A model generated the notes under the pieces. That model saw nothing but the letters and a program-made list of their open reading frames with translations. It had not been told where the DNA came from and searched no databases. Source: Paraspadella gotoi (lineage: Eukaryota > Animalia > Chaetognatha). From it: 64,000 nt of DNA. The stretch is from positions 21,109,775-21,173,774 of the forward strand of contig CM119270.1 of the NCBI GenBank assembly GCA_051294375.1. The letters are read 5' to 3'. Every line of letters starts with the position of its first letter. The stretch's first letter is position 1. Positions 3,828 to 63,268 of the stretch are shown piece by piece. The position numbers and the translations under genes were made by a program.

Positions 3828-3875
<48 letters not shown>

Positions 3876-10300: not shown

Positions 10301-12190
10301 TTTAAGAAATTTAACTAAAGCACCTGTTCAAACGAAAAATTTAGATATTAAAGAAAATTTAATAGACAAAAGCATTTTTAATATTACTCTTTACCCCATA
10401 TATTAATCTTTTTGATATTTAATTATAAATAGGAAAGGCTAAAAACTTAAGGATTTTTAATTTTTAAAGATAAGATTCAGGTCAGTTTGCAAAAAGGTTG
10501 TCTACCCAAAGTATATTTTTTTTGATAATTTTTGATCATAAGGAGGTAAAAATATGAAAAACTGTTAATGGATCAAATCATCAAATTCATCATATCTTGA
10601 TAATTTATTATCAAAGTTTTCTTAATTTTTTAACGCAGAGAAAACAGAATAATTTTTGAAAGTTGTAGTTATATTTTTCATTAAAACTTTTATGCTCTAT
10701 TAGAATCCATCACAAAAAATGTTAAGAATTGATTTAAAAAAAATGTTATCATTATATTGTATATTGTAATTTTGATGAAGCAATAATAAAAGCATTAAAA
10801 TCGAACTTTTTTTTAAAAGAAAAATTATTTTTTAGCCTGAAAAGTAGACTTGAATACTAAAGTTTTGAACGGGAGAGGCGGACCGAGGAAGGAGCAGGGC
10901 GGTTAACCTGGAGACCCTTTTTCTAAATATAAACATTGTGGCCCCCCTATTGAATTAAATTTCATCATAGTAGTTTCGAGATTGCAAGTGAAGAGACGGT
11001 AATAATTGTTATGGGCGTTAGTGACGGAACAAAAAAAAATACGCAATTTTTTTCAAAACTATCTATTCCTTAAATCTTCTCTCGCTAATTGAATTTAATT
11101 AATATGAAATTGGTACAAACCCAATATAAAAATTATCCATTCATTTAATAATAAGCTATCTTGCCCACTGACCTTTGGGACAGGCTTTGTGTGGGTTTAA
11201 GGCCTCCATCATCTTTACAAGATAATGACATAGCAGGTTCCCCTGGCAAGGTTCAATCAAGACTCTCTCACAGTCCTCGTTTAATTCACTGCCCAGAGTT
11301 ACCTGGCTTCCCTATCAATGAAGTGGTATAAATATTTCAAAGAATGTTTCAATTTGTATGAAAAGACCACTGTCCCATTAATATATCATGTGTTTTTCGT
11401 TTACAACAATTAGTTGAAAACGTAACATTCAAAAGGGCCATACAGCATTAACAGAATAAACGCATATGTAAGTTTACAATTCATACAAAAATAATAAATA
11501 TTTAAAATTAACAGAACGAAAAAAGAAAGAAAAAAATCCACAATAAGCTGCGTGTGCGTTCATCCGTGTCCGTTCAATAGTGTGGGGAAATTGGAAATGT
11601 GAACGAGTGAATCATGAATGATCATGATGAAGAATAGCAACTAATGATTTTCAGTGTTAAAAGTATGAAAAAATAGTAATAACCTTACGCTTAAGTAATT
11701 AGATTATATGAATATGAACATGTAACAATATCCTTGGTTAAATAACGCATAATAATGGGTGATAGGTATATTATTATATAATGAGCGAAATAACTGTACT
11801 AATAACGACTTCTGACTTATGAACGAATGAATTTATGATTTTTGAATTTTTTTGAAGAAACGAATTCGCAATTTCTTCATTTTTCTTCGCAACATCCAAA
11901 AATTTCTATTTTTGGTAATTCAAGCCTAATCCAATGAAGACGTAAAAACGGCCCTGGGGCAGTGAAGTGGTTAACCTCTTCATCTCTTCTCTCTCTTCGC
12001 CGCGTCAAAGCGACAAACCAAACAAAGGGCCGACGACGAGTTTGTTTTTACAATCCAAAAACTCACGTGACCTGTGTCGGTCGACTTTGCTCTCATTTTG
12101 GTCGTGGACCGAAACCCCGAACCGCGAAACCGAAACCCGCGGGGGAACATTCGCTCTTCCTCCTTTCCCCGCTCTCCCAATTTCTTTAAA
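4350..12190 (-). CDS. Putative multi-exon gene, product unidentified, frames broken by indels
   Basis: GC-rich coding-like islands at ~11960-12190, 9770-10070, 7790-8120, 6250-6845 and 4350-4640, some with minus-strand AG acceptors. The cleaner mirror copy at ~130-390 (+) reads LFSLRFLSKIETLLEAPTLKDGADDHDDDED...stop. No continuous ORF can be built. Confidence 0.3.
5290..6095 (+). mobile_element. DINE-1/Helentron-like non-autonomous element, copy 1
   Basis: Homologous to 61786-62600, with a GACG/GACA microsatellite (~5897-5960) and a short hairpin plus aataa at the 3' end. Confidence 0.6.
6906..7200 (-). mobile_element. Structured SINE-like repeat, family B copy 1 (twister-bearing)
   Basis: Reverse complement aligns with ~60960-61234 (cgccagtgac...gtcac, ggtc..aagccc, agatgcc...ggcatcaca, 3' gccata). 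Serial hairpins keep their stems while loops differ. Confidence 0.7.
6954..7050 (-). ncRNA. Twister-like ribozyme, type P5 (family B)
   Basis: Minus strand reads GCGG-A-GA-CCGU-CCUAGG-CG-U^AA-CCGC-GC-CAGUGAC-uggaggc-GUCACUG-A-GGG-UCGG-AA-GC-CCC. P2 GCGG/CCGC, 7-bp P3, P4 GGG/CCC, T1 CCG/CGG, T2 GC/GC, P5 UCUGC/GUAGA. Predicted cut 7015^7014. One extra A sits before the conserved GA. Confidence 0.75.
11106..11349 (-). mobile_element. ~240-bp dispersed repeat, family A (twister-bearing)
   Basis: Reverse complement of the copies at 16694-16945 and 61500-61735. Confidence 0.85.
11157..11224 (-). ncRNA. Twister-like ribozyme, type P5 (family A)
   Basis: UAUCUUGU-AAA-GAU-GA-UGGA-GGCC-U-U^AA-ACCC-AC-ACAAAG-CCUG-UCCCA-AA-GGU-CAG-UGG-GCAAGAUA. 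Same core as 16817-16879 with homopolymer-type insertions. Confidence 0.65.
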
Positions 12191-15585: not shown

Positions 15586-16539
15586 TTTACCCACAACCTT
15601 CTCCACCGACGATTTCCATCCTCGCGCATTTTATTCAAAGGAATCGTTAAAACTTCCATTAACGGAAATCTACGACGACGACGGAGACGACGACGACGAC
15701 CACGACGACCACGACGATGACAATGATAACAGATGACAATGACGACGACGACGACGAAAACGATGTCGAAGATGAAGAAAAGGGCTACGATGATGAAAAA
15801 GACAACATCGTCGACGACCGAAAAAAAATGGCAACGAAGATGACAAAATTATGACAATGAGGACGACAACAATACGATAACTATTGGAGGCGGCAGAAAA
15901 GAAATAACGAACGACGACGACAACGACGATGACGACAACAACGACGACGATGTAAACACTTTGGTAAGGAATCTTGTTTCATCACTCACAAGGATGGTTT
16001 TCAACCCCACCTATCCATTCAGCTGAACTCATTGCCTCACAGGCCAAGAGAACATTTTGTTAAAATAATATCAAGACGCCTTTGTCTTCGCTTCCCTCTG
16101 TTCCAACCGTCCTGATTTACCGATTACCCCTTCCCACCCCGCACATCCGACCTTCCTTCTCTACGCCCTTCCCTATCCCTACCATCTTCCTCTCTTTCCC
16201 AGCTTATCCCTCGACTCGCTGGACAGATCCCGATGTCGCCAGGATCCTACAAGCCCTTTTCATTCTCTCGATCACGCGGAATTCACGCATTCGTCAATTT
16301 GTCGACTGATCGATTTCGCGGTAACCGATTTCGTGAGCGAAAGAACCGGCTACAACCTGGTCTGTATTAGAATCAGTGGAAGAAGTCACGTGATAAGAGA
16401 GAGAGGTACGAGTTACAGTAAATCGAGTTTGATGCTAAAAGTTCTAAAATGTTCGAGCGTTGACGTTAAAGGATCACGTCGTGAAGTGTGTACGGCTTAA
16501 AAAATTTATAAATTGTAATATTGTATTGATAGAGCCGGC

Positions 16540-16945
16540 TCCTCGGGAGTTTATTAAATCTTAGACAGGAAGAAGATCTCGATTGAAAGCTTGCAAAGAC
16601 TTGCTGTTTTGTGATCTTGTAAGATGGATGGATGACTTAACTTATTGTTTGAAGTCAAAAGAGAAGATAGATTATTTATTATCTTTTCACACATTTGAAA
16701 TATTCTTATAAATATTATGCTACTTCATTGTTAGAGAAGCCAGGTACTGGGGGAGTGAATAAACGAGACTGTGATAAAGTCTTGATTGAAAGCTTGCAGG
16801 GACCTGATTTTGTCATTATCTTGTAAGAGTGATGGAGGCCTTAAACCACCAAAGCCTGTCCAAAGTCAGGGGCAAGATAGCTTATTTATTAAATGAATGG
16901 GTAATTTTTCTATTAGATAAATTTTATATTGGTTGTACCGATTTT
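16540..16945 (+). mobile_element. Tandem pair of family A repeats (degenerate ~16540-16690, intact ~16694-16945)
   Basis: gattgaaagcttgca..gac...atcttgtaag...gatgga...cttaa...aagtca...aagatag occurs twice, about 200-205 nt apart. Confidence 0.75.
16817..16879 (+). ncRNA. Twister-like ribozyme, type P5 (family A, best copy)
   Basis: P5 UAUCUUGU(16817-24)/GCAAGAUA(16872-79); GA 16831-32; T1 UGGA(16833-36)/UCCA(16859-62); P1 palindrome GGCC; U16842^AA; T2 AC(16848-49)/GU(16865-66); P4 CCUG/CAGG; AA in L4. P2 (GAGU/ACC) is weak. Confidence 0.8.
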
Positions 16946-17654
16946 ATGCGCAGGTTGTCTGAAAGAGTCACGTGACTTAAAATTGATTGACACCTGGTTG
17001 CCAGTAATAAAAAGGCTGATGGGTAACGACTCCGGAAGGTAAGGGAATAAGGGGGAATGGGGTAAGGTATGTGGGTGCGTCGAAAAATCTCTCGATTCGG
17101 AGCGACGGAAAAACTTTGGATTTCTAAATAAATTTTTGTGGTCACGGAATATTTAATTAGTTTGATAAAGATGTTTATATTGTTAAATTGAACGTAAATA
17201 GGAGGGGAAAATTTCAAAGTCTGTTGGGCAAAGTTTCGGAGAAAGCTTATTGTAGTGACAGCAAGCTTATCATAGTGACGGGTAGCTTATCATTCTGACA
17301 GGAAGCTTATCATCGTGACAGCAAGCTTGGATTAGTTCCGTGAAGCAGCGAGCAAAAGCTTTAACGAATGGGACGCGATCTGCCAGATTTCTGTGGCAGA
17401 TTTTATTTTTTAGTTGCCAGATGTTTGTGAAATTCAAAGTGATAATTTGATTAATTCTGTCCATAGATTTTATTCGTTCTTTGTGAAGGAATTTTGTCAC
17501 AGAGATTGAGTGAAAGTTCACAGTATTTTTTGTGACGGCCTCACCGGAGAGCGGATGAGCCGTGAATGACAAATTGTGAATCGGTGAATAAACGACGCCG
17601 ACGACGCCTCGGGTTGAAAAGGTTTCTGGGCTTGTGGTGGACTGAAGGGTTTGG

Positions 17655-19557
17655 TTCACAGGTTCTTGGTGTCATCTTCATCATTCGAATTCACTAGTTC
17701 ATTGTCGTTTCTCTCAATGTTTACTTTCTATAAGAAGTTATTTCTTTTTCTTTGTCTTTTACAAGTTCTGGTCTTAGATCAATCTTCTCGCACTTTAACG
17801 ATTTCAGCCTTTGCGGTTATGAGAGATTCATTGTGCTCAACATTAGCCTTATTGTCCACCGCACCTTCCAATTCACTGTCTCCTACATTGTCCACAACGT
17901 TGGCGTCATTGTCCACCACATTTTCCGCTTTATTGTCTTCTACATTGTCCACAACGTTGGCGGCAATGTCCACCACTTCCTTAACGTTATTGTCCTCTAC
18001 ATCGTAAACAACATCGGGGTCATTGTCCACCACATTTCCATTCATTGTTCAAAACACCGACCACTACACTTCTTCTCCATCGCCCACAGTTTCGCCCACA
18101 GTTTCCTCCACTCATAACCACATCCGCGTCATAATCTCCAAATTCTCTTCCTCTTCCTCTCCCTATTCCCGTCACGCCAAAGTTCCATCTCGGCTTCGGC
18201 CAAAAGACGAATTATTTCCTCTCCTATTTTCTTGGAGTCTCCTTCAAGGTAGCAGGGTCGCTGGATGCAAGCGAGGCTTGCTTGGCTTCCTTAGCTGCCT
18301 TTGCTTGCTCACGTTGGAGCGATCTTCATTGGAGGCATCGTCGTTTTCATCTGCAACGCAGTCAACTCCTTCTCTTCATCCGTTTCCGAATTCTCCATGA
18401 TTGGTTCCAAAATCATGAAAGGCTCATTCTGCAATCGATTCTGTCGTTGATCTTCAATATGATTTTCATATAAGTCCTCCAGCCTGTTTCTCTCCTGCTG
18501 CTCCTGCTGTTGCTCATTTCCCTGCGGCTGCTGCTGTATTATTCCTCTCTTGAACAGTTTTGTTTTGTTTCCATCAAATCGAGTCTATTTAAAGATGCTG
18601 CAGATGATTTTCCAATTGATCCGCATTCACTTGAGTAATTTTCTCTCTTCGATCTTCGGACGATTCAAATGTGCCAGCTTCTTCCAAGTGCAATAGCTTG
18701 GCTTCATCCAAAGTCTCGATGGTTGAACACCGTTCATCTGCAACGGGATTTTTACCATCAACGGCTGCCATCCGCGATTGCCTACCATTCCCAACGCCTC
18801 TATCTGCAATCTCCTCCTCTCCACGGTCCCCATCGGCAATCGCCTTCACATCCACAACGTCCTCCATCTGCAATCGCCTCTCCTCTTCAAACGGACTCCA
18901 TCTGCAATCTCTCTCACATCCTCAACTCCTCCATATGCAATCGCCTCCAATCATCCTCTTCTCCTCCACCATCTCCCACAACCAACGACTTTCGATCTTC
19001 GATCAAATCCCTGACGACGGAGAGCGACTCAAGCCGCAGGACGCCGCAGCGCAGCGCCTCGAAGCTGCGTCGAATTTCGGGCGGAGAGGCGACGATTGAC
19101 TGTGGGACGGAGGGGTCGTTGGCGTTGGCGTTGTCGTTGGCGTTGTCGTCGTTGTTGGCGTTGGAGTTGGCGTTGTTTGAATCATCGTCGCGTCCTCCGT
19201 GTTCTAATTGACGCCAAAAGTTGATGGAAACGAAAGGCCGCCGCCCCGCCCGCCGCTGCTCTCTCCACCGCCCCCTCTCTCCCCTCCTTCCTCCCCTCTT
19301 CTTCTTCTTCCTCCTCCCTCTCGTCTCCACTTCGACTCTCTCTTCCTCGTCTTCGTCTGAATGAAAATCTCGTCGCCTCCGAGAAACCGAATCGAATCTC
19401 GGAGAGAAACTCTTCTATTTCTGGGGGAGAGATGGAGGAGGAGGAGGGAGAGGGAGAGAGAGAGGGGGAGAAGGGGGAGGAGGAGAGGTGGGGGTGGTGA
19501 GAGGGTGGCGGCGTGGTAGTCGTCGTCGTCGTCGTCGTAATTCTCCGGTTCTGACAT
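17655..19557 (-). pseudogene. Truncated, frameshifted inverted copy of the 33769-36117 ORF (probably an assembly duplicate)
   Basis: Same peptides in broken frames (MSEPENYDDD, FWRQLEHGG, ETLDEAKLLHLEE, VVDN repeats). It ends abruptly at a chimeric junction at 17654/17655. Confidence 0.85.
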
Positions 19558-22500
19558 CGCGCGTCGCTTGTCGAAGATCGACTTTCGAATTAAAGAAAGA
19601 AGGAAACAGATTTTTCCTTTTCTTTGATACGAAACATCGATTATTCGCTGTACGCGGTGTCCACTGTACAGCGAGGTGGATTAAAGCGGCGAGGGAATTT
19701 CGGTTGCGACGAGGAATGACTGCATTACAGTCGAGGTCGGTTTTAACGGCGCCGGGAATCGAAAGAGTTTTTTTGTATCCAAATCGATGTTGGAAAAAAA
19801 ATCTAATTTTGACGGACAAATTATTTTTAAAAGTTTGGGTTGTCCAGCTTTTAATCTGTTTAAAAAGAACAAATTAGTTAGTTAAAATTGTGATTAAAGC
19901 ACATTTATACAAGCTAACACTGTTAGTCCATTATGGTTTACTTTAGTTGATGGCGCAGGAAACTGTTCGTTGGTTTGACATGACACACTGATATTAAACA
20001 TAATTTTTAAACAATATTAAATGACAACTTGTTTCTTCAGAACTCGACAGATGTTCATTAATTGATTTGATTTCACGTAATTTTATTAGTCTGTATTTCT
20101 TTATCTTATTTATTTTTATTTACTTAATTCTTTATTCAAGGTTTTGTTTTGCTTTGGATGGTCAAATCTTGATCTTAACTACACGAATTTCGTTTATTCT
20201 TTCTTCAATAACCAAATGTTATTCTGATCGGATTCCGATTCTTTCTCGGCGCCGATATTTCTCTTTGCTCTGCGGCCGAGAGAATTAAAAGCCGGATTTT
20301 GATCGGCGGCCGAAAATCCTTTGACCGTGAATGGACCGGTGAATGGAGGTCACTCGAGCGAATGAATGGAATGAATGAATTCTCGGGACGGAGGAAGAAG
20401 GAATGCCGGTCAAAGAAAGATAACATCTCTGTGATTCGTCACAGTCACTCAAAGCGTCGTCGTCGTTGTTGTTGTAGTTTTTCACCTTCGAATCGCCTTC
20501 ACCTCTCACGGGCGAAAGAATTGTGAGGGGAAAAGTGAAAGGTGATCACTTAAGCTGTATTCATACTACTTTTATAATTTGTGACAAATGCTTCAGTCTG
20601 GTCATAACCGTCAATTTCTGTTTACTTGGGTCCGTTTATATGCTCTTCTTTTTCTGTACCGTTTCTTTTATCATCTCTTATTCGCTTTCTCTCTGTTTCG
20701 ATTTTGTTCCGTTCCGTTTCTGTTCTTTCGTTTCCGCTTCTGTTCATTTGTTTTCGCTTCTGTTCTTTTTAAATCCGCTTCTGTTCTGTTTGTTCTGCGC
20801 ATGAGCAGAAGCGCGCAATCCGCTTATTTAAGGGGACGCGTGATCGAAATTCGCCCGCGCAAAAATGAGGATAACGAATTTGCGAAAAAAAGTCACGAAC
20901 GCAAAGATGCAAATTAGTTAATGCGGATTAAAATTTTTTGCCCCTGATTTTTTTCTTAATCGAACCGTTTCTTCGTCCATTTGAAGCAAGAATGAAGAAA
21001 ATGAGAAAAATTAGAGATTAGTCTAGTTATTTTCTTTTTATAAGCAAATTTTTTTCTGGATGCTTTCAGTTTTAAAACTTCTATGAATTCAAAATTCAGA
21101 AAAGTTTTTTGTCTGTATATCAGTCAGGTTTTGTTAAATCATGAAAGAATCTAGAAAAATGCAAACTAGTAGATAAAGTAGATAAAATCTAATAATCTTG
21201 CATAATAAATACCTGAGAAATAAAAGTTAAGCTTAACTCAATTAAATATTTCACATTAATAAACATCCAAATACAAAAAAAGACAGAGCATTAAATCACG
21301 TAGTCAAAATGTCATCGATAATAAACATAAACGATTCTTTTTCTTTAGTTTTAAACTTCACAAAAACATAAGAAAATAAAGTCCCAGTGAGAGGCTGAGG
21401 CGTTTACCTCCTTCATTCATTCACTACTCCCTTAATTACTGCTAGTTAAAGGGTAGAGAAATATTCAAATTCGTCGGAGGTCAGACACCAGAAACTTTCA
21501 TTTTGCTCTCTTTATTTTTAGTCTCTCTCTCTCTTCTCTCTCTCTCTCTTCTCTCTTTCTCTTCTCTTCCCTTTTCACAGATATCAAACTGGGAGCAATA
21601 TTCTTCATTCTTTGTCCTGTCTTTCCAGTCGGCAGCAGCTGGATGCAAATTGATTGAAAGCATCTCAACCCACTCATGTCACCCTCCTTTAAAAATTCGC
21701 CCAAAAAATCTCGGATCGAATTTTAAAATTGAACTGAATCTTTAATCGAACGGTGAATCGTAAATTTGATGAACAAACCGTAAACCATGAAAAAAAAACG
21801 GTAAACGATGAATGCAAGAAAAATATATATATATATACAAACATAAACAATCTTAAACCGGATTCGGGTCCTTGTTAAAATCTCCCGCGGATGAGCGATG
21901 GCGACCGAAGCGGAAAAATACAAACAAAAAAAAGAAATTAAGAAAACGATTTATTATTAAGTTCGAGGAAAATTTTAATTTTTTAAAAATCGAAAAAAAA
22001 GTTACGGCTTTGTCGAAAAAAATAGAGTCGTTTTAAGTTTGTTGTTATTGTTTTTTATTTTGAAGGACAATAAATTGAAAAGAAAAGAGCAAAGAAAAGG
22101 AAAGGAAATTAGGACTAAACAAAGAAGAAGATAGAAAGGAAAGAATGGAAAAGAAAGAAAGAAAGAGAAAAAGAAAAGAAGAAAAGAAAGAAAGGAAGGA
22201 AGCGGATCGTCTCCAACCGCGCGATAAACGAAGACTCACATCGTCTTCTCTCTTTGACGTCGCGCGACATCTTTAATGACATCAGGAATGTTCAACCTCG
22301 ATCATGTCATCTCTCGTGACATCAGGAATGACATTACTAATGACATTCGAATCCCAAAATCGAAATGACATTGAGATGTGAATTGCCAATCGGTTATACG
22401 TGAGTCAGTGAATCCGTGAGACGTAAAACAACCTGATTCAACTCGAAGACGGGAAGGGAAAGTGAAATTCAGTTCGGACGAAACCGAGTTCCGAGACCTG

Positions 22501-24263
22501 GGCCGGGCTTGATCCGTTTTTAGGGGCTGGGGTTGGGCCCTGAGGGTCGGGCCTGAGCCATTAAGGGCTGAAGGGCAAGAGGAACATCGGGAGATCGAAC
22601 GGCTTCACTGCAGATTAATCAACGGGTATAATTAGGAGATATATTTGCTCAAAGAGATTTTTCTACAAATTGAATTTTTTCTTCTCTTCTTTTTTCGGTC
22701 GACAATATTAAATGTTTTTATTAATAATTGTAATGTTTTAAACGACGGATGGCAGCTTCATCTCACTCGTAATTTTTGGAGAAAGAAAACGCCCTGTGTT
22801 CTTTTTATGTCGTTGTTCACATTAGAAACAAAATTGTTATCTTTGTTATAATAATATTGTTATTCTTTCTTCTTACCTTTTTTTCCGCGCTTTTAAAAGG
22901 TGTTTTTCGATGAATTAAAATTGTCGTTTATACAAAAAAAACTTTTCATTGTTTAAAACGTCTTATTTTTTAACCATTCATCCCGTGCTCCGATTAATAA
23001 AACGGAACATTAAAGTAGTTTAGCGTTTTTCTCCCCCCATTTTTTTAGGCTTTAACTTAGGGATTACGGGTCTTTCTTTCTTTTTTTTTTTTGAAAAGGA
23101 TGTTTACATTGGCTTCTCTCTTTATGAACTGACAGCGAACTTCCTTATTAAAACTTTTCGATCTCTTTGGGAAAAAATTGAAAAAAGAAATGCAGGAGTT
23201 CGTTTTTAATTCTTTAGCGATGACGATGAAGATGACGATGACAAAAGATGACAAAGATGACGATGACGAAGATGAGAAGGTGACGACGAAGACGACGAGA
23301 CGACGACGATGACGACGACGATGACGACATGGTGACAGTGACACTGAAAAGTGATGACTACGAAAACTTTTTTTTAGAAAAATCACGACAATGACGATTT
23401 TGTTAACAACGAATATATATATATAATAATTTTAAACAGACAATAAAAATTGACGATTATGAAGACGACAATGATGACGAAGATGACAAATTTAAGAAAA
23501 AAACGATGAAATTATTATTTTTTTAGAAAAAAAAGAAAAAAAAGAGGACAAAGATGTCGAAGAAGATGATCAGGAAGAATAAGAAAGACGAAGTCGATAT
23601 AACGACACTGAATTCCGGAAGTTGACGACGACGACGACGACGATGACGATGACGACGACAATGACGACGAGATCGCTAGGAGGTGAAATTAGAGGAAGTC
23701 GTCGGTGATCAAGAGACGTGAATGAAGACGAACAACCGACGATGAGACGACGCGACGACGACGAACGCGACGACGACCACAAAGAGGCGGCGGCGCGGCG
23801 CGGCGTCGGCGGCGCGGCGGCGGCGGCGAAACGTCCTTCCAAAATTTGTCTCTTTTTTCCGGAAAAATTAAAAAAAAAAAGTATTTTTTTCTTCGACAAA
23901 AATGAATTTTGTTTTGTCGGGCAAAACTGAATTTTTTGTCGGGCAAACTGATTTTTTGTCGGCTAATCTCTCGACAGAGTTTTTAAGGCAGATCTCGAAA
24001 ATGATCGCGAGAATAAATCATAGTGACCGCCGATGACGACGACGACGACGACGACGACGACGATTACAATCGATGGAAGAGGAAAGACGGAGGACGACAA
24101 CGACCAACGACGACGATTGATGAGGAAGACGACGACGACGACGACGACGAGCACAATGTAAGTGGGAGGGAGAAAAGAAAATGGGCAGCGCATTCTTCCT
24201 TTGATGAGGCATGGGCATGGGAGTGAGAAGAGAGAGGTAGAGGGAAGAGAGAGAGAGAGAGAG

Positions 24264-24301
<38 letters not shown>

Positions 24302-25028
24302 GACAAGTGTAAATAGCAAACCAGGAGGCTTCCTTTTATTCCTTTATATTTTTTTCCTTCTTTTTCCCGAGTTTTCCCTTTTCCTCAGAAGAAAAGGTGT
24401 GTTTCCGATGTTCATGTTTTTTCGGTGTGGGGAATTGTCTTTTGGTTATTTGTGGTCGAATCAGCGTTTGTGGCCTCCTTTTGTTCTTGGTGTCACCGGT
24501 TTAAGAAAAACAGCCTTCTTTATCTTTCTTTTCTTTTAGGTTTGTCTTATCTTTTGTTTATCTTTGTCATTGTTAATGAGTGTGTCTTTGCATCGTTGTC
24601 TTTCTCTTTGGTCATTGTCTTTCATTTTGTCATCGACTTTGTCATTGTCTTAGTATTATTGTCAGTTTTCCGAATCGTTTTATTTGTTTCAAAAGTCATG
24701 AATGACGCCTTCGTCAGTCAGTCAAGAAAGTGTCATCTTAGTCGCGATGTCATAAAATGTCATTCTCATCGCTATCATCATATCATAAAATATCACCCGT
24801 GTTTCCGATCGTTAACGTGTCGTCGTGTCGTCGTCGTCTCGTCGTCGTCGCGTCGTTCGTCGTCGTCGTCTTCGTCGTCGCAGGTGAGTTTTCGTCCAAC
24901 TGGACTCTTTTTGTGACCCGAGGTGAGTCAGGCGGGTTTGGGTAAGTGAGATTTTCACTTTATTTCGACGTCTTTGTCATTGAATTCTCAGGTACAACAA
25001 TGTCATTATCGTGATCATCATCATTCAT

Positions 25029-25064
<36 letters not shown>

Positions 25065-25578
25065 GTCATCGTCGTCGTCGTCTCGTCATCGTCTTCATTA
25101 TCGTCGTCGTGGTCGACGTTTATTTTTATTTTTAAATTTTAATAGAACGCTCGAAATACTCTTGCCATTTTACTTGTTAGTTACTAACGATTTTCACTTG
25201 ATTGTTTTTCCTCATGTTTATTGTTCCAATCATGGTATATAGCTTTGTATTTAATCGAATTTTTTTTAAAATTTTTTTTCCGTGTCTACTGTTTCCTTTC
25301 GTGTTTTCTCTCTTTTTTAATTGCGAAAAACCCGTTTTTTTAAATTAGAAAAAATACAATATATAAAAATCGCGCAGACGAGGGATTGTATTATTTTAAT
25401 CCTGTTCTTAATAAAAAAATCAAATTAATGAGTTAGGACGTTCATCGATTAATGAGACCGATTTCTTTTAAACCTTCAATTAATATGGTTTTAATCTCTC
25501 ATCGACCCCATCATTCCACCTGCAATTTCCATTTCTCTCTCTCCTTCCTCTCTCTCTCTCTCTCTCTCGTCTCTCTCT

Positions 25579-25636
<58 letters not shown>

Positions 25637-25661
25637 NNNNNNNNNNNNNNNNNNNNNNNNN

Positions 25662-26113
25662 GTCGATTAGAATTAAAACCAATATTAATTGAAGGTTTAA
25701 AAGAAATCGGTCTCATTCGATGAGATACGTCCTAACTCATTAATTTGATTTTTATTAAGAACAGGATAAAATAATACAATCCCTCGTCTGCGCGATTTAT
25801 ATATTGTATTTTTTCTAATTTAAAAAACGGGTTTTTCGCAATTAAAAAAAGAGAGAAAACACGAAAGGAAACAGTAGACACGGAAAAAAACCGTGTCTAC
25901 TGTTTCCTTTGTGTTTTCTCTCTTTTTTTTAATTGCGAAAAACCCGTTTTTTAAATTAGAAAAAATACAATATATAAATCGCGCAGACGAGGGATTGTAT
26001 TATTTTAATCCTGTTCTTAATAAAAAATCAAATTAATGAGTTAGGACGTATCTCATCGAATGAGACCGATTTCTTTTAAACCTTCAATTAATATTGGTTT
26101 TAATTCTATCGAC
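25662..26113. repeat. Near-perfect ~450-bp palindrome with 7-nt A loop, beside an N gap
   Basis: gtagacacgg-aaaaaaa-ccgtgtctac at 25874-25900. The right arm is also a direct repeat of ~25280-25530. Confidence 0.9.
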
Positions 26114-26159
26114 CTCATTCCACCTGCAATTCATTCTCTTCTCTCTCTCTCTCCTTCTC

Positions 26160-26215
<56 letters not shown>

Positions 26216-26595
26216 TCTCTCTCCAAACCCTTCAGTCCACCACAAGCCCAGAAACCTTTCAACCCGAGGCGTCGTCGGCGTCGTTTTTCACCGATTCACA
26301 ATTTGTCATTCAGGCTCATCCGCTCTCCGGTGAGGCCGTCACAAAAATACTGTGAACTTTCACTCAATCTCTGTGACAAAAATTCCTTCACAAAGAACGA
26401 ATAAAATCTATGGACAGAATTAATCAAATTATCACTTTGAATTCACAAACATCTGGCAACTAAAAAATAAATCTGCCACAGAAATCGGGCAGATCGCGTC
26501 CCATTCGTTAAAGCTTTTGCTCGCTGCTTCACGGAACTAATCCAAGCTTGCTGTCACGATGATAAGCTTCTGTCAGAATGATAAGCTACCCGTCA

Positions 26596-26790
26596 CAGGG
26601 ATGTGGAGCCCGGAGGCCGGAGCCGGAGCTGGAGCCGCCGGGCCGGATTTTTTTTTTGCCGGAGCCGGAGCCGGAGCCGGAGCCAGAATTTTTATCTAGC
26701 CGAGCCGGAGCTGGAGCCGGAGCCGAAAAAAATTTTTGACCGGAAGGGAGCTGGAGCCGGAGCCGAATAAAATGCCCGGCTCCAGCTCCA
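26596..26790 (+). mobile_element. Left end of a hAT-like DNA transposon or MITE
   Basis: Starts CAGGGATGTGGAGCC followed by clustered GGAGCC subterminal repeats. It begins exactly where homology to the uninterrupted copy at 17275 stops. No right TIR is seen before the gap. Confidence 0.7.
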
Positions 26791-27404
26791 TAAAAATAAA
26801 ATTAAGATTAATAATTATCATAATTAAAAAAATATTTAAAAAATATAATATTGATTTTTTATAATTCATGAAAATTTTCAACTTACTTGTTTTACCTATT
26901 TACTATTTTCTATTTTTCTATTTTTTATTTTTTATAATTTTATAATACTCATATATTTATTATATATAAGATTAAGTAAATAATATAATTTTCTTTATTT
27001 TTTAATTCTATTAAATTTATTATAAAATACTTTCAATTTTTTATGAAGTAAAAATTTATCCCTGATATCGCTTTGGTTTACTTAATACAGCAGTCTGATT
27101 AAAGGCAAAGCTTTTCAAGTATATATTTTAAATAATAATAATACTAATAAAAGTTATTTTTCTTACTAATTTTTTTTCTTATTATATTACTTGCAATTTT
27201 TGTTACATATGGTTGAAACATATCTATTTAACAGATAAAAAATTAAATTACTTTAATATAATATTTTATTTTAACTTTTTAATTAATGAATCTAAAATAT
27301 ACGATAAAAACTTATTATATTAGTTTAACTTCTTTTCATTAATTAAGGAGATAACAGTTTTTTTATTTTGAACAACGATTTTTATATTGACAAAATTTTT
27401 AAGT

Positions 27405-28090: not shown

Positions 28091-28132
<42 letters not shown>

Positions 28133-28274: not shown

Positions 28275-28320
<46 letters not shown>

Positions 28321-28932: not shown

Positions 28933-28967
<35 letters not shown>

Positions 28968-29875: not shown

Positions 29876-29906
<31 letters not shown>

Positions 29907-36384: not shown

Positions 36385-39173
36385 ATGGAGTCCCACTTCA
36401 TGTTTCCTGACGAAGTGAAGGCATACCTCGACAACGTCGCCCGCGGTCGCATGCAGATCTCCAACTACAGCATCAAGAAAGATCTGCATCAGGACAAATG
36501 CCTTCTCAATCTTTCCTTCACCAACGCGCCGGCCGCATTTCCGTCTGAGGTTTGTGATATGTTAGTGATATGTCAGTGAAAATAACAACGACGTTCCATG
36601 TCATTGTGACACGGAAAAGAATCTCTCCTTTTCCTCGAATTCTGACATAAAAAAATATCATAAATGTCACTAACAAAATGAAAATTCGGTTAAGAATTAT
36701 AATAAAGATTTAAACAGCTTAAGATTTTTGAGAATATTTGCGGTTTTTTTATTACCTTATTTTTTTTTTTTATTCATAACGAGATTACAAAAAGAGTGAT
36801 TAATCTCTCTATAGAAAATTATCATTGTCTTAGAATTTCTTTGACACGCGCTATGACCTCCCTTTGAGCTTATTACCCAAAAATGAGAAAAGGAAGAGAA
36901 AATATAAAAAAATTATGAAAAAAACCAAAATTGTTCTCACAAGTCGCATTTCAGAACAACTAAGGAAGATTTTGTGATGAAAACTTTGCATGAAGCGATA
37001 AATATTCTTTAAAAGTTCAGTAGACAGTATTTCTCCTTTCAATTAGAGTGGGACATAGTTTTAAAACTTTAATTTGTATGGATGAATTCGTGGCATTTCC
37101 CCAAATTCTCATTTATTTAATAACCCATTTAGAAACCACCCCTCATTATGAAAATGGTTCAATCAATTTAAAAATTATCCATTCAATTATTAAACTTTAT
37201 GACTTTGGGCAAAATAATGACAATAGCAGAAACAGATCAGTTTTCAATAAAGAATTACCTTTAATTACTAATTCTAATTCTCTCTCTTCGCCCATAATTC
37301 CACTCCTTCCTCTTCCTCCTCTCTCCCTCCTCCCTACCCCCTCCCTCTCCCTCCCCCTCTTTCCTCCGTCCTTCCCTCCCTCTCCCTACCCCCTCTCTCC
37401 TCCCCCTCTCCTACCTGGCTCTTCTCCTCCTCCCCCTCCCCTTCCCTCCGTCACTCCCTCTTCTCCCCTACCCCTCTCTCCCCCCTCTCCTTACCTGGCT
37501 CTTCTCTCCCTCCCTCCCCCTCCCCTTCCCTCCCTCACTCCCTCCCCTTCCCTCCCTCTCCCACCCCACCCCTTTCTCCCCCCTCACCCCCACCATCCTC
37601 CAAGGTCCAAGACTAACCTCGACAAAATCTCCGCAGGCAACCTTCGCGTCTCCGACTACGACATTCACCGCGACGTCAAAAAGGGCGACGGTCGAGGATG
37701 AGTTTGGCGCCGCCTCCGCGAACGACGCCGCGAATCGAAGGCGCGGGAAGCGGCGTCGCCATTCCGGCCATCGGCTTCGGCAGCGGCGTCATCGGCGTCA
37801 CGAGCGAGGACGCCGAATTCACGAAGCCCTTTTCCGATTTCGAGTCGGCGTCGACGAGAGATTTCGACGTCGGGACGCCGGTGGGGCAGCTATTGGCAAA
37901 TCCGACGCCGGAAAAAGCGGCGCCGGTCGAAGAAGAGATCAAGGATCCGGTGGAGAGAATCAAAGAGGCCGTCATCGATTTGAAGGAAAAGAAAAAAAGA
38001 AAAGAGGGAATCATCGAGTGGCTTTTGAAAGAATTGAAAGAGAAAGAGACGACAACAACGACGATCCCCGTTGTCGAGGAAACCGTCGTCGTCAAACCGG
38101 ACGCAAACAACAACGTGGGAGAAGAAGTCAAGCAGGTCTCCGAGGCGCCGGTCGAGAGGGTCGTCCCGAAGACTCTGCCACCGCCGCCGCCGCCGCCAAC
38201 AACGCCGAAGCCACCGAAATCCCCTGGACCGCCCACGCCGCCAAAACCGAAACGCCACGAAATGGCGACGATTGCGGCGCCGGTGGGCGTGGCGTCGGTG
38301 GGCGTGGCCGACGACGACGTCGACGGCGCCATCGACGATCATTTCGAATTCTTGTCGTTGGAGGAAGAAGACCTTGTTCGCGTTGACGAAGGAGTTGAAT
38401 ACGACGCCGCCCTCGACGCACTGGAAACGGTCGTCGCGGAAATCGACGCCAACGACGGCGACGCGCTGCAGCGGACGCAGGAGTTGCAGCTGCAGCCGCA
38501 GGACGTCCCGCAGAATTCCAAGCAGTTGCTGCGCCGGCAGCAGCAGCTCGACGCGGCGACGTCGACCAACGATTTGCTGAAGAGGAAATCGCTGGAGTTG
38601 CTGGAGAATGATGGGGTTGGGGTGGAGGATGTTGAGGAGGAGAAGGAAGAGGAGGTGGAAGAGGAAGCGAAGGAGGAAAGGAAGGAGGAAGAGAGGGAGG
38701 AGGAGGAAGAGAGGAAGGAGGAGGAAGAGAAAAAGGAGGAGGAAGAGAAAAAGGAGGAGGAAGAACCGGTCGTCGAACCTCCAAAGCCGAAGAAGAAGAG
38801 GAGGAAGTCGAGTCTCTTGAAGGGAGTCTTGGGAAGTTTGTTCGGCCGAAAGAAGCGTCGGTCTTTGTCGGGCGGAGAGGAGACCGACAGTCGGGCAAAG
38901 AGTATGACGTTGCCCGCCAGATTGGACGGAGCGGCGGTGATGAGGGTGGAGGGTGGAGGGAGGGAAGAGGAGGAGGGGGTCGTGGTGGGTAAAGGGGAAG
39001 AGGAAGAGGATACGGAGCAGCCGCAGCAGCAGCTGGAGCCGGAGCAGCAGCAGGAACATCAGTGGCCTGAGGTGCAGGAGCAGCGACAGGAAAGCTCTCC
39101 GGAGACGCAGCGCCGCAGCGAAAGTGTAATCGTCCCGTTTCGATTGCAAAAGGACAAAATGAACATCGCGTAA
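36385..39173 (+). CDS. Two-exon gene (36385-36549 + 37605-39173): tandem ~45-aa N-terminal domain followed by a Pro/Glu/Lys-rich disordered region
   Basis: Donor GAG|GTTTGT and acceptor ccAAG|GTC after a pyrimidine tract, phase 0. The splice joins FPSE|VQD to form a second copy of the exon-1 motif. Needs about 3 single-base indel corrections at 37615-37697. Confidence 0.7.
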
Positions 39174-58685: not shown

Positions 58686-61600
58686 ATGAAAGAATTATTT
58701 TTTGTGATTTTGAAGATCATTTTGAGCCTCACTGATGTCATCACTGATTTAAAAGTCACCACAAAATATCTTTATTCACAAATGAAGGAAATTGGAATCC
58801 TTTTAATGGTCATTTTAATTGGTCATTGTTTTATATCAGCAACATATGGAATATATACCATACATAAAAACCAGGAATATTTTTTTCGGATTTTAAAGGG
58901 AAAAATGTTCTAATTTTGTACAAGAACCATGATAATGGGGGCATTTAAGGATTTTAATATTTTTCTAGAACCACATCCTTATTGAGTTAAATTTTTAAGG
59001 TTATTTTCGGTTAGATTGTAATTCTAACTAATTTTTTTATAAATCAACAAAATCAAAAGAAAAAGTTTTAAAAGTACTTACAGCTCGAGAGCGGTTTTAG
59101 ATAGGAAATTATATCAGAAAACTAACATCTTTTATTTCTAGAACGATATCAAATAAGAACAACTTAATTTACTATTTTTCAATCACATCTTATTTTTTCG
59201 CGCCTTTTTCAATCACGATTTTTGCAATTTTTCAAAAAATAAAGATGAGCTAAATTTGTCCACTTTATGAAACCAGCTATAATGGCAGGAATGCGTTGTG
59301 ATAATTTAATCACGAGATACAAAATTAATAAGTGTTTTGCCTAATAATTAGAACATTTTCTTCAGAATTCTAAAGTGAAATGTCTTACAATATTATTCAA
59401 CCTTTTGGGTTTAGGATCATTTCCATTAATTATTGATCAGTATTTTGACAACCAAATATCAAAGAAAAAAAGAAATAAAATGCCAAATAAGTTGTTGAAA
59501 AAAACGTTTTTTATTACCAACATGGNNNNNNNNNNNNNNNNNNNNNNNNNATTTAATTCATAATTTTTTTGAAAGTTTTCCACACTGCACTGCGGAACGA
59601 TTGCAGGTTCAATTCTACTTGGACTGGAGCCTCAGACTCGCTTTGTATCGATGATACAACCCCAAAGTATAATTATATTACTTTTTAGTGGTCGAAAATC
59701 TACTCTATACAGAACGCAACCTGCTACAAATCTGTATGAGATGACAAATATCTCTTGCATGTGGCAGGGATGAGAATTCCTATGGTTCGCGACATGTTTT
59801 CTGTCTTGGCCAATTGATCATCAATATACTATGAATTTGTTTCAATTGCTTCTTCTACTTTTAGTTTGACTAGTTTGCCATAGATAATAGACACAGACTA
59901 TCTTTCAATCAAACAAATCTCAATTTATAAAAATTATTGATAACAGCTGGTTCATTTTTAGGTTTATTGCAGGGGCTGTTTGGAACTTTAATATCATTAT
60001 ATCTGGTATATATATACTCCCTAAACTTTTGCATATGGGTTCTTTTTTTGGCTCACTTTCACTGCTGAGGTTATTTACATTAGCTGAATTGATCTCTTTA
60101 GCAAAAAGAATTTTTTCATGCAATGCCAAAAATTTAAAAGTGATGGAAATATCTGAGTCATTTAACTTTATATTGCTCGCTTTTTCAATGTTATGGAGTA
60201 GCATTTTATTTTCATTCTTTTTTGCTATAAAAATCATGCACATTTTAGCAGGTAAATCGCATCAGGTTGTTCTGATCCTTTTGATCACAATTGAATGTAT
60301 ATTTCTAGTAATCCTTCAGTTAATCAGCTATTTGATGTATATTAAATAATGAATAAGAAATTGGTACAACCAATATAAAATTATCCATTCATTCAATAAA
60401 TAAAGCTACGTATATGGTGATCCTAAATTCGCCTCCCGTATAGCTTGGTGAAACTCCGCTCGTCCCGTTGGCTTTAGATAGCTTAGTACTTGTAAAAATG
60501 TTGTTTTTTTCCATGCCTCGAGGGTCGCCTGGTTTGATTAATCGGCCGTAGGTTGAACTGGATTTAACATGGAGCAAAAATTTTTAAATATCAAAAGTCA
60601 TAAATGTTTAATAAATGACGAATAAATCGTTAATAAATTTTTTTATTGTAGAGGTAAATAAATGGCAAAATTAGGTACTACAATAAAAACATGTAGAAAA
60701 TCCTTGGATTCCTTAAAAACAACAGTTTCCATCCAGCTGATCTTGTCCAGAGAACGAATTATGATCGAATAACAAGTTACGAGGTTTTTGGCCGAAAAAA
60801 AGCCACGGAGAAGCGACTAGAAGGTGACAAGACTGGTCTGAAAAAGTCAACTAAAGGACAAGGAAAAAATCACCAGACGCGGGTCACAAAATCTTTCAGA
60901 TCTCGTTCAACAACCGTGCGTTCCGGGTTCAATCCAACAGTCACTCTGAGCTTGGTCACCCAAGGTGCTGTCTTGAGGGCGGGCATGTGTGGCAATCCTA
61001 AATTCGCCTCCTGTATAGCTGTTGAAATTCACCTCGTCCCATTGGCTTGGACAGCTAAGTACTCGTTCACCAACTGTGAGTTCTGGGTTCCCCTCACGGT
61101 CATGCTGGTTAAATTAGATGGTGTCAGCATAAAAACGCCAGTGACATGGGTGTGGTCACAGCAGGTCCAAAGCCCAAAGCGCAATTGTCGGGAGATGCCT
61201 CACACCCGGGCATCACACATGTCTCCCGGCCATACTATCTTGCCTCTGATTTTAGACAGATCTTTGGTTTCTAAGGCCTCTATATGAATAATTTAAAATG
61301 AGTTTATTAATACATAATATACAGTTATATTACAGTATTATACACTGACTCAGCCTTCAAAGTCAGGGCAAGATAGCTTATTCTATAAATGAATGGATAA
61401 TTTTTTTTAATGGTTTTACCAATTTCATAAAATTAGCAGCTCCTTTATTTGATGCTGGACAGAGTTATAATATAGTATTCCCGAAGTCGCCTCCATTTTA
61501 AACATTCTTTGAAATATTATACCACTTCATTGATAGGAAGACCAGGTACTTCAAAGAAATGATATGAACGGAGATGTGAGAGAGTCTGATTGAAAGGCTT

Positions 61601-63268
61601 ACAGGGACCTGCTATGTATTAGTTGTAAGCAGTGATGGTCGCTTAAACCACCAAAGCCTGTCCAAAGTCAGTGTGCTAAAAATGAAGCTTATTTATTAAA
61701 TAAATGGAAAAATTTTTATATCGTATTCCAATTTCTTAGACAACCCAGTTTACAAAGATTTTAAACCATTCCTCACGCTTCCTTCAACAAGTTGAGCAAA
61801 AATGTCAGATCTGCCCTTGATTCATATCGGTAATTAATTAATAAATAATTAAATTATAAGTTAAATTAAATTAATTAATATATTATTAATTAGGCAATTA
61901 ATTAATTATCTTGATCTCAAATGTTTTAGTCTTTTTGTCACTAACCATGACAAAAGCAATGAACGACCATGAGAATAATGCAATATGACTGATTAATTAA
62001 TTATTTATTAATTCAATTGACTAATTGATTATTATTTTATTAATTACATCCTGCATTTACATTGATATAAAAGGAAAAGAAGCATAATCAATTTATGTGA
62101 AACAGGTTTTTTTGTTTTTCCATTTTAAACTCATTTCCACTAAGACGATTCATCGGAACTTGATTTCCAGCTTATCACACACTTTCCTACCCACCATTAC
62201 CCAAATCTCCAGGTCAATCGCCCCATCCACTCAGAGCAATAGGTGTCAAATAGTGAAATATATTTTTGTTTTTTTCCAATTAAAATCATTATCCACTTGG
62301 ACGGATTCCATCGAAACTTCATTATCAGCTCAATCACAACCTTCCCCTCGCAAACACAAAATTTTAATTCAAATTATTCCATCCAATCACAAGTAATTGG
62401 TGTTTTTTGCTAAAGGAGGGACGGATGAAGACAGACGACGGACAGACGGCACGATGGACGGACATCATTTTTTTTCAAACTTATCATAATTCGATGTTTC
62501 TGACATGATAAAGTGTGTGCCCGACAATATTGAGGGGCGGACGACGGACGACAAAGTGAATTATAGAGTCAGGGTCTGCTGATAGCAGATCGACTAATAA
62601 AAGGTACCGGGTTGGAGCTGGGGCTTTTTCGTTTAAGAATTAGAAAAAATTAAATTTACTGTTTAATCACCAAGGGACGACTAAAAAACCAGGTCGATAG
62701 GCAGGGGGAACCTTTGCATTGCCTTGCTTTAGACACTGAACAACCCTGATGAGAATTTTTTGCTGAAGCAATCAAGACCGTTATAATAGAAAAGCCTTAA
62801 AATTCCAGCCATGGGGTTTGCGCAAAATGATTGATTGTCGCCAACCAACGTTAGTTTTCTTATTGCGAAATAGAAAAAAGGGACGTAATTGCTTAATTAT
62901 TTTCACATCCAAGGAATCTATAATAAAACAATACAAATCAATAACTATAATTTTGATAATAAGCAGAATATATTATATCTTATAATAAAAAAAACAACCC
63001 AAACTCTCACATTGAATTATGTAAAACTTGGAAATACATGCTTAAATCCGACACATGACCTACAATTGCGATGGTTTTGATGGATATTCTGTTTGTCTGG
63101 CCTTTTTATTTCTACTTTATTGCAAGTTTAAAGAGACCCGTATTCAAAATGGTTTACTATTTTTTTGCTCAATTATTACGCAACTACTTTATATGCAACA
63201 TTTTAACTGGTACATTTATCATTGCAATTTGCGTATTTGTTACAAGAAAAAGAAAAGCACTTTGCTAA
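58686..63268 (+). CDS. Putative XK-related (Xkr-like) multi-pass membrane protein, fragmented
   Basis: Motifs in the expected order: LSLTDVITDLKVTTKYL (~58720), LFNLLGLG (~59395), FVSIASSTFSL (~59835), SLLRLFTLA (~60060), FKMVYYFF (~63145). The exon structure is unresolved because of a gap and indels. Confidence 0.5.
60409..61234 (+). mobile_element. Family B SINE-like insertion (partial copy ~60410-60490 plus longer copy ~60880-61234) nested in a family A repeat
   Basis: B-box GGTTCAATCC at 60926-60935; direct repeat 60420-60490 vs 60995-61063; flanked by CTA (60406-08 and 61235-37), which splits family A sequence aagcta|tcttgcc. Confidence 0.6.
61101..61183 (+). ncRNA. Twister-like ribozyme, type P5 (family B copy 2, partly degenerate)
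   Basis: AUUA-GA-UGGU-GUCAGCA-U^AA-AAAC-GC-CA-GUGAC...GUCAC-AGCA-GG-UCCA-AA-GC-CC. T1 UGG/CCA covaries with CCG/CGG of copy 1. P2 and P4 are weak. Confidence 0.6.
61500..61735 (+). mobile_element. Family A repeat (fragments also at ~60357-60408 and 61235-61280 minus, 61350-61428 plus, 56417-56437 plus)
   Basis: Aligns over its full length with 16694-16945. Confidence 0.85.
61620..61676 (+). ncRNA. Twister-like ribozyme (family A, partly degenerate)
   Basis: GCAGU-GA-UGGU-CGC-U-U^AA-ACC-AC-CAAAG-CCUG-UCCA-AA-GU-CAG. Confidence 0.55.
61786..62600 (+). mobile_element. DINE-1/Helentron-like non-autonomous element, copy 2
   Basis: Starts AACAAG, has internal duplicated units and a GACG/GACA microsatellite (~62420-62465), and ends in hairpin agtc..ggtctgc-tgata-gcagatc-gact plus aataa. 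Confidence 0.65.

What the first reader, a model, noticed from the sequence alone, without database searches (positions are those of the whole stretch)
16540..16945. Family A: tandem ~204-nt twister units as a possible circular-RNA 'twister retrozyme'
Two head-to-tail copies place predicted cut sites at 16638^ and 16842^, 204 nt apart. The 5' part can form a long hairpin (CAGGU/ACCUG, AGACU/AGUCU) and the element ends in a small hairpin (attggt-tgt-acc). No ORF and no tRNA head are visible. Established: metazoan non-LTR retrozymes are short tandem repeats with hammerheads that yield circRNAs, and twister leaves 5'-OH and 2',3'-cyclic phosphate ends that RtcB can ligate. Inference: the same strategy with twister. 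The upstream copy here is decayed.
Basis: partly seen in the sequence, partly recalled or inferred. Interest (0 to 1): 0.8.

Follow-up and report, generated by a model that had tools for sequence, protein, structure and literature searches.

The report
Twister ribozyme inside a jumping repeat
The two neighbouring copies belong to a very abundant, scattered repeat of about 260 bases whose better-kept copy carries a predicted self-cutting "twister" RNA; it likely spreads like the ends of Penelope-type jumping genes, and because the upstream copy's ribozyme is broken this spot is unlikely to release the proposed 204-base RNA circle.

Summary
The twister is real as a fold; the 204-nt circle is not supported. 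The downstream copy (16682-16948) holds a type-P5 twister with the catalytic nucleotides, both pseudoknots and an 8-bp P5 helix (Rfam Twister-P5 25.8 bits, below its 37.6 cut-off). Predicted cut: 16842^16843. Its P1 is one A-U pair closing a palindrome (AGGCCU), the design of dimer-acting hammerheads. The upstream copy is about 65% alike, lacks the last ~50 nt and has a broken core, so only one cut site is credible. The family unit is ~256 nt, not 204. Eight pieces lie in the window; six end at the same 3' base, and 5' truncation is common. Contigs of public runs show thousands of copies, sharp ends, and head-to-tail joints only at about single-locus depth. That pattern, an inverted neighbour, and the cut lying ~87 nt before the 3' end match Penelope-like pseudo-LTR-plus-tail units with a twister in place of the hammerhead. 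No partner reverse transcriptase was found. Cleavage, expression and circles are untested. Verdict: new variant of a known kind, interest 0.58.

The parts
16495..16681 (+). Older, decayed family copy; lacks the last ~50 nt; twister core broken (relic U^A at 16638^16639)
   Evidence: nhmmer 16513-16680 = model 34-213, E 2e-7; 132 of 202 columns identical to the downstream copy; pairs lost
16682..16948 (+). Full-length family copy (model 1-256), placed directly behind the old copy
   Evidence: junction spanned by contigs in 3 of 4 runs laid
16741..16806 (+). 5' stem-loop (CAGGU/ACCUG outside, AGACU/AGUCU inside); function unknown; not recovered as a consensus fold of 4 window copies
   Evidence: in the minimum-energy fold, z -1.3; consensus fold fails
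16817..16879 (+). Type-P5 twister: P5 16817-24/16872-79; P2 16827,29,30/16845-47 with A16828 bulged; L1 16831-35 (general-base G16831); T1 16833-35/16860-62; T2 16848-49/16865-66; P4 16855-58/16867-70
   Evidence: Rfam RF02684 25.8 bits, below the cut-off; descriptor; 21 of 21 named pairs form; no variant of 5% or more at 16829-16871 in 4 of 4 runs
16836..16841 (+). Minimal P1: one A-U pair over a GGCC loop; the hexamer is a palindrome and can pair with a second copy
   Evidence: sequence; hairpin alone +5.6, self-duplex of 16835-16842 -13.9 kcal/mol
16842..16843 (+). Predicted scissile bond U^A, 161 nt from the head and 87 nt from the 3' end once a local 16-nt duplication is discounted
   Evidence: cleavage untested
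16832..16975 (+). 47-codon open frame starting inside the ribozyme; no relative found; may be chance
   Evidence: chance 0.02-0.07
16899..16930 (+). Local 16-nt tandem duplication in the tail, private to this copy
   Evidence: sequence confirmed by contigs 16906-17150 and 16886-17150
16928..16942 (+). Terminal hairpin, a few bases before the fixed 3' end
   Evidence: z -1.6; 3' end
11103..11370 (-). Solitary full-length copy with long-read insertion errors; used to map the family's ends
61492..61737 (+). Near-full copy (model 9-256); P5 and P1 decayed
61349..61428 (+). 5'-truncated copy (model 172-256)
61235..61282 (-). Inverted fragment (model 155-203) about 70 nt from the next copy; keeps the palindrome; paired changes in T1 and P4, but no general-base G upstream and T2 broken
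60355..60410 (-). 5'-truncated copy (model 199-256)
37148..37211 (-). Old 5'-truncated copy (model 179-256), weak match E 0.008

Best explanation
This is a dispersed, very abundant repeat of about 256 bases with a fixed 3' end and a predicted type-P5 twister in its middle, likely copied into new sites by the reverse transcriptase of a Penelope-like retroelement, and the 204-base spacing likely arose when a full copy came to lie directly behind an older, decayed copy. Shown: unit length, shared 3' end, 5' truncations, clustering with an inverted neighbour, an intact twister fold in one copy and a broken one in the other. Inferred: the unit is a 'pseudo-LTR plus tail', shed by an autonomous element or run by a non-autonomous derivative; reverse transcription starts ~87 nt downstream of the ribozyme and copies mainly uncut RNA back to its 5' end, often stopping early. 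Predicted: the ribozyme is slow as a single copy, because P1 is one pair and a rival hairpin (16813-16835) hides L1, and faster when two copies pair through the palindromic P1, as in double hammerheads. This locus would cut at most once and release no 204-nt monomer or circle.
For: Six of 8 window pieces end at model position 256, and the three short ones among them are 5'-truncated. Family-level depth stops sharply at both ends of the 11103-11370 copy in 2 of 2 runs with many contigs, and the head is about a third as deep as the body. Depth on both sides of the cut is alike (16775 against 16901, 4 of 4 runs within 1.4-fold), so copies do not start at the cut. 11,876, 10,015 and 3,574 contigs lay on it in three DNA runs; my rough bound is about 10^3 to 10^5 copies (the tool says depth is no copy number). 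Three gaps of 75 nt or less among 7 pieces: P 0.0002-0.0008, threshold chosen afterwards. An inverted fragment lies beside a cluster, and an opposite-strand joint is among the listed joints. Penelope-like elements show 5' truncation, partial tandems and adjacent inverted copies (PMC8557442 section 6); their hammerheads occur mostly singly, sometimes on opposite strands 100-700 bp apart, with palindromic helix III (PMC4209133 passages). In the anole element the cut is at +26, reverse transcription starts at +111 to +118 (85-92 nt later), uncut RNA is the main template, and it nicks AT-rich DNA including its own repeat (PMC11167929 passages). The common variant G16872A (4-21% of depth) turns a U-G pair of P5 into U-A.
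Against: No reverse transcriptase or GIY-YIG frame among 105 window frames scanned, and no partner in any collection. Eleven of 14 distinct short motifs tried gave no useful match, and the rest chance matches, in the published Naiad/Chlamys consensus file. The 85-92 nt match rests on one element of another clade. The two adjacent copies differ in age, so this is not a classic partial tandem made in one event, and the tail-less end at 16681 is not a common end (depth holds to 11124). Twister P1 is dispensable in vitro (PMC5408937 passage; PMC11662667 section 32), so the dimer gate may not exist. P2 has 3 pairs and a bulge, not 4. The pseudoknot-free fold gives P4 about 0.1 and P2 under 0.001 probability. 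A 7-nt direct repeat at both ends of the unit is unexplained.
Confidence: 0.58

Rival explanations
1. True twister retrozyme, the reader's idea moved to family level: master copies sit in perfect tandem arrays that short-read graphs collapse, double cutting frees ~256-nt monomers that a host ligase closes, and dispersed copies are reverse transcripts of the circle opened at a fixed point.
For: A ribozyme in mid-element fits a permuted circle. The palindromic one-pair P1 mirrors axolotl retrozyme hammerheads (PMC7229834 passage). Size and 34% GC fit. The same 7-mer stands at head and tail. One contig in X8 joins tail to head 250 places back at depth 36.7, letters between unknown.
Against: Tail-to-head joints were seen only at 13.8, 14.6 and 36.7 depth against 6,800-94,000 at the head, at most 0.5%. 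3' loose ends run into mixed AT-rich flanks. None of 8 window pieces has an intact neighbour. Circular folds do not beat shuffles (z -0.75 to +0.65). The joint test is weak for short high-copy contigs, and only 15 of 98 and 15 of 22 joints were printed.
Confidence: 0.2
2. SINE-like passenger of an RTE or other LINE, with the twister marking or trimming the RNA's 5' end as in Schistosoma Perere-3.
For: Fixed 3' end and 5' truncation fit target-primed reverse transcription. Truncated twisters at RTE 5' ends are reported (PMC8501958 passages; PMC7761336 passage).
Against: There the copy begins at the cut, next to a target-site duplication. Here the cut is 161 nt inside, both sides are equally deep, the topology is P5, there is no simple-repeat or poly(A) tail, and only 1 of 6 flank tests gave a candidate 8-nt AT-rich duplication.
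Confidence: 0.1
3. The twister-like fold is an inactive relic or a chance match inside an ordinary repeat.
For: Below the Rfam cut-off; E 0.32 window-wide; short P2; only 1 of 5 aligned window copies keeps all pairs; covariation rests on 5 noisy copies.
Against: All core nucleotides and 21 named pairs are present; descriptor chance is 0.13 per 64 kb without counting the 8-bp P5; no variant of 5% or more in 16829-16871 while flanking parts of the unit carry several; P1, P2 and P4 flaws are tolerated in tested twisters.
Confidence: 0.07
4. Non-autonomous Helitron/Helentron or other DNA transposon that captured a twister.
For: Small hairpin just before the 3' end; the 16682 copy starts with TC after an A; no clear target-site duplication. 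Helitron features are recalled, not taken from a call.
Against: The 3' end is not CTRR; no terminal or subterminal inverted repeat seen by eye in the aligned ends; the gradient of 5' truncation with intact 3' ends is a retroposition pattern; a conserved ribozyme has no role in DNA transposition.
Confidence: 0.05

Closest known systems
Type-P5 twister ribozyme (Rfam RF02684; features from PMC5408937 passages)
   Same: Strand order, U^A site, general acid and base, T1 with the A-A pair, T2, P4 with the G-C and U-A pairs, open P5 helix.
   Different: P1 shrunk to one pair over a palindromic loop; P2 of 3 pairs plus a bulge; score below the family cut-off; sits in a high-copy eukaryotic repeat.
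Hammerhead-bearing pseudo-LTRs of Penelope-like elements (PMC4209133, PMC11167929) and the hammerhead-less Naiad/Chlamys clade (PMC8557442)
   Same: Ribozyme inside a short terminal unit; weak palindromic helix just 5' of the cut; mostly single, 5'-truncated copies; inverted and adjacent copies; 3' end ~87 nt past the cut.
   Different: Twister instead of hammerhead; no RT/GIY-YIG frame found; no sequence link to published Naiad consensus ends by short-motif search.
Metazoan non-LTR retrozymes (PMC7229834)
   Same: Short, non-coding, AT-rich, thousands of copies; one-pair palindromic helix like axolotl HHR_Amex1.
   Different: Twister, not type I hammerhead; no array of intact units seen; no unusually stable circular fold; circles untested; host not shown to be an animal.
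T-variant twisters of Perere-3 (RTE clade), Schistosoma mansoni (PMC8501958)
   Same: Twister tied to retroposition, with a weak or borrowed P1.
   Different: Those are P1-type, and the cut is the 5' boundary beside a target-site duplication; here it is P5-type and 161 nt inside the copy.

Membership tests
Twister ribozyme, type P5 | Rfam gathering score 37.6 bits | tested here: not met
   25.8 bits; none at gathering
Twister ribozyme, type P5 | U^A site, general acid A and general base G | tested here: met
   U16842^A16843, G16831
Twister ribozyme, type P5 | Pseudoknots T1 (3 pairs + A-A) and T2 (2 pairs) | tested here: met
   one paired change in T1 in one fragment
Twister ribozyme, type P5 | P4 (3 pairs + G-C + U-A) and open P5 | tested here: met
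   G16872A keeps the pair
Twister ribozyme, type P5 | P2 of 4 pairs and a P1 stem | tested here: inconclusive
   P2 3 pairs + bulge, P1 1 pair; such flaws tolerated in tested twisters
Twister ribozyme, type P5 | Self-cleavage | not testable with these tools
   needs an in vitro assay
Metazoan non-LTR retrozyme | Tandem units each with an intact ribozyme | tested here: not met
   upstream core broken; tail-to-head joints at most 0.5% of head depth; collapsed perfect arrays elsewhere not excluded
Metazoan non-LTR retrozyme | Type I hammerhead | tested here: not met
   twister; no hammerhead hit
Metazoan non-LTR retrozyme | 150-450 nt, GC under 50%, non-coding | tested here: met
   ~256 nt, 34% GC
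Metazoan non-LTR retrozyme | Highly self-paired monomer | tested here: not met
   z -0.75 to +0.65 for 4 sense-strand circles, on error-bearing window copies
Metazoan non-LTR retrozyme | Linear and circular monomer RNA in vivo | not testable with these tools
   no raw RNA reads offered
Metazoan non-LTR retrozyme | Animal host | tested here: inconclusive
   cofilin relatives only in unnamed environmental sets
Penelope-like element (pseudo-LTR unit or non-autonomous derivative) | RT and GIY-YIG ORF, or a partner sharing the end | tested here: inconclusive
   none in 105 window frames; whole genome not held
Penelope-like element (pseudo-LTR unit or non-autonomous derivative) | Fixed 3' end with frequent 5' truncation | tested here: met
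   6 of 8 pieces
Penelope-like element (pseudo-LTR unit or non-autonomous derivative) | Partial tandems and adjacent inverted copies | tested here: inconclusive
   clustering P under 0.001, inverted fragment ~70 nt away, but the adjacent pair is of unequal age
Penelope-like element (pseudo-LTR unit or non-autonomous derivative) | Optional 30-40-nt tail | tested here: inconclusive
   upstream copy lacks ~50 nt, but no common tail-less end in the depth
RTE-type T-variant twister | Copy starts at the cut beside a target-site duplication, RT frame downstream | tested here: not met
tRNA-derived SINE | tRNA head | tested here: not met
   0 tRNA in the window
tRNA-derived SINE | Pol III A and B boxes | not tested
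   looked at by eye only; no clear box

The most novel reading that the evidence does not exclude
A dimer-gated twister: two copies swap halves through the palindromic P1 to form a double twister that cuts only multimeric RNA, the twister counterpart of the double hammerhead, and hidden perfect arrays of the ~256-nt unit turn it into the first natural twister retrozyme, carried by a hammerhead-less Penelope-like (Naiad-type) enzyme.
Probability: 0.2. Interest if true: 0.82.

Novelty: new variant of a known kind. Interest (0 to 1): 0.58.

Why it matters
If the best reading holds, a second ribozyme class has taken the hammerhead's seat in a Penelope-type terminal unit and arrived at the same trick: a weak palindromic helix just before the cut. 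That would suggest the design is selected by the retroelement's life cycle, not by hammerhead chemistry, and offers one answer to why Naiad/Chlamys elements lack canonical hammerheads. Nine full-text searches (open-access papers only) showed no paper on a twister in such a repeat or on a dimer-acting twister. The monomer-versus-dimer question is a one-week bench test. As a source of a 204-nt circle this locus is a negative.

Tried and rejected
No whole genome held. No relatives in viral contigs (3 scans) or prokaryote genomes; the single metagenome hit L001 is a chance match in a bacterial locus with no similarity to the window. No RNA holder listed among 15 runs. X8 and X11 are guessed RNA, held as contigs; X8 mirrors the DNA profile, so neither says anything on expression. 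The idea that the 47-codon frame (with a YIG-like word) is the start of a GIY-YIG protein: no Pfam match, no relative among longer proteins, and the one hit among 1.84 billion representatives, P0041, is a translated 52-residue repeat whose weak units add up: rejected. Reading the ribozyme as P1-type with the downstream GAUAG: T1 then has an A-C mismatch and no P2 forms; only the 61235-61282 fragment is ambiguous. A consensus fold of the 5' stem-loop from 4 copies failed. Host lineage from cofilin stayed open. Roth 2014 and Lunse 2017 are not held, and the supplement of PMC11662667 could not be read, so this twister may already stand in those lists. PMC11722881 has no 'twister'. Look-ups of earlier findings by place, by sequence and by the first word set were empty.

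Full report
Setting. The window is eukaryotic and no whole genome is held. It has 25-N gaps and kilobase inverted duplications full of indels, which points to noisy long-read gap filling; contigs of public runs confirm insertion errors in two of the copies. The only clear host gene found is a cofilin; its close relatives are unnamed environmental proteins, so the lineage stays open.

The ribozyme. Rfam gives Twister-P5 at 16828-16870 with 25.8 bits, below the 37.6 cut-off. Read by hand against the features in PMC5408937 (passages), the downstream copy has U16842^A16843, general-base G16831, T1, T2, P4 with its extra G-C and U-A pairs, a 3-pair P2 with a bulge and an 8-bp P5: 21 of 21 named pairs form. 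My descriptor, written after seeing the copy, finds it alone; 60 shuffles gave 0.13 hits per window. In 4 of 4 runs laid, no variant of 5% or more falls in 16829-16871; the two nearest are at the bulge (16828) and at a P5 pair that stays paired (16872). Among 5 aligned window copies, 6 of 21 pairs show a change on both sides, and 2 of 500 shuffles reach the covariation score; with so few, error-bearing copies this is weak. Against: the pseudoknot-free ensemble gives P5 0.43, P4 0.1 and P2 under 0.001, and a rival hairpin at 16813-16835 hides L1. Cleavage is untested.

P1. Only six bases separate L1 from the cut, and they are a palindrome. As a hairpin they cost +5.6 kcal/mol; paired with a second copy they give -13.9. 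[quoted passage not shown] In both ribozymes this weak helix lies just 5' of the scissile bond (hammerhead layout recalled). The palindrome is whole in 3 of 5 aligned copies. A double twister is my inference; P1 is dispensable in tested twisters (PMC11662667 section 32 part 1 of 2), so the monomer may well cut.

The pair is not a 204-nt cassette. The spacing is right and the junction is real: one contig spans it in each of 3 of 4 runs. But the upstream copy matches at 132 of 202 columns, has lost T2 and P2 and about 9 nt of its core, and stops at model position 213 of 256. One credible cut cannot release a monomer. The proposed circle folds no better than shuffles (z -0.75).

The family. A profile of three copies finds 8 pieces up to E 0.05 in the window; 6 end at position 256, three of those are short 5'-truncated pieces, and three are full or nearly full. 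On the solitary copy at 11103-11370 family-level depth stops at both ends in the 2 runs with many contigs, and the head is about a third as deep as the body. The 5' end is less certain than the 3' end: a drop in depth shows only that this flank is unique, but three long copies begin within about 15 nt of each other. Thousands of contigs lay on the element in each of three DNA runs; my rough bound is 10^3 to 10^5 copies, and the tool warns that depth is no copy number. Loose ends beyond the 3' end are mixed AT-rich flanks (24 of 1,063 and 16 of 209 rows printed). Tail-to-head joints appear only at depths 13.8, 14.6 and 36.7, at most 0.5% of the head's depth; 15 of 98 and 15 of 22 joints were printed, and perfect arrays would collapse into short contigs that this test can miss. 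Depth is alike on both sides of the cut, so copies do not begin there, unlike Perere-3 (PMC8501958 passages). Pieces cluster more than chance (P 0.0002-0.0008 on the 7 pieces then known, threshold set afterwards), and one is inverted. Only 1 of 6 flank tests gave a candidate target-site duplication. There is no tRNA head.

How it most likely works. These traits are those of Penelope-like insertions: 5' truncation, partial tandems, adjacent inverted copies (PMC8557442 section 6), with the ribozyme mostly met as a single dispersed motif. In the anole element the hammerhead cuts at +26, reverse transcription starts at +111 to +118, uncut RNA is the main template, and AT-rich DNA is nicked, its own repeat included (PMC11167929 passages). 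Here the 3' end lies 87 nt past the cut and the head 161 nt before it. I infer a pseudo-LTR-plus-tail unit copied from uncut RNA, with a ribozyme that acts mainly on multimeric transcripts; the finding is a full copy lying behind an older one. The partner enzyme was not found: no RT or GIY-YIG family in 105 window frames, nothing in the collections, no useful motif match in the published Naiad/Chlamys file, and no relative for the 47-codon frame that opens inside the ribozyme. I noted the Penelope analogy before seeing earlier notes of this scan that report P5-like twisters lacking P1 at Naiad ends in other genomes; they are unchecked leads, not support.

Rivals. A true twister retrozyme with hidden arrays (0.2) keeps the mid-element ribozyme, the palindrome, the 7-nt repeat at both ends and one tail-to-head contig in a run guessed to be RNA. 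An RTE/LINE passenger (0.1), a dead or chance fold (0.07) and a Helitron-type element (0.05) fit worse.

Novelty. Twisters at retroelement ends are known and so are dimer-gated hammerheads in repeats. Nine searches of open-access full text listed no paper on a twister retrozyme, a twister in a Penelope-type unit or a dimer-acting twister. Roth 2014, Lunse 2017 and the supplement of PMC11662667 could not be read and may list this motif. Of PMC7761336, PMC6765202, PMC10085705, PMC8782182 and PMC5680766 I saw passages only; of PMC11662667 also the abstract, outline, passages and section 33. Verdict: observation partly confirmed, interpretation partly supported, new variant of a known kind, interest 0.58.

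Noticed in passing
window 60415-60499 and 60990-61074: A second repeat (two copies, 74 nt at 84%) lying next to or near family A pieces; folds into a closed stem, no Rfam match, not a twister by my descriptors.
   Followed up: partly
window 1-4768, 17275-35696, 40847-44661: Three kilobase-scale inverted duplications with many indels, two centred near 25-N gaps; probably long-read assembly artefacts.
   Followed up: partly
window 54512-55151 (-): Cofilin exons; closest relatives (87-93%) are unnamed proteins of environmental collections.
   Followed up: partly
window 33643-36117, 37617-39173, 48782-50050, 50470-51702 (+): Long low-complexity open frames with no Pfam match.
   Followed up: no
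window 11103-11121, run X8: In the run guessed to be RNA, the loose letters beyond the 3' end (14 contigs, median 33 nt) are less A/T-biased than in X5 and are not the element's head; a shared downstream continuation, such as a parent element, is possible.
   Followed up: no
window 16582-16597 and 16785-16800: A 16-nt stretch is identical in the old and the young copy although the rest has diverged; it may be a protein-binding or structural signal.
   Followed up: partly
window 11358-11364 (-) and 11103-11109 (-): The same 7-mer stands at the head and at the 3' end of the unit; unexplained (terminal redundancy, target preference or chance).
   Followed up: partly
window 25779-25995: A ~217-nt near-perfect inverted repeat (Rfam MIR2646 126 bits, far below its cut-off) at the centre of the large inverted duplication.
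   Followed up: no
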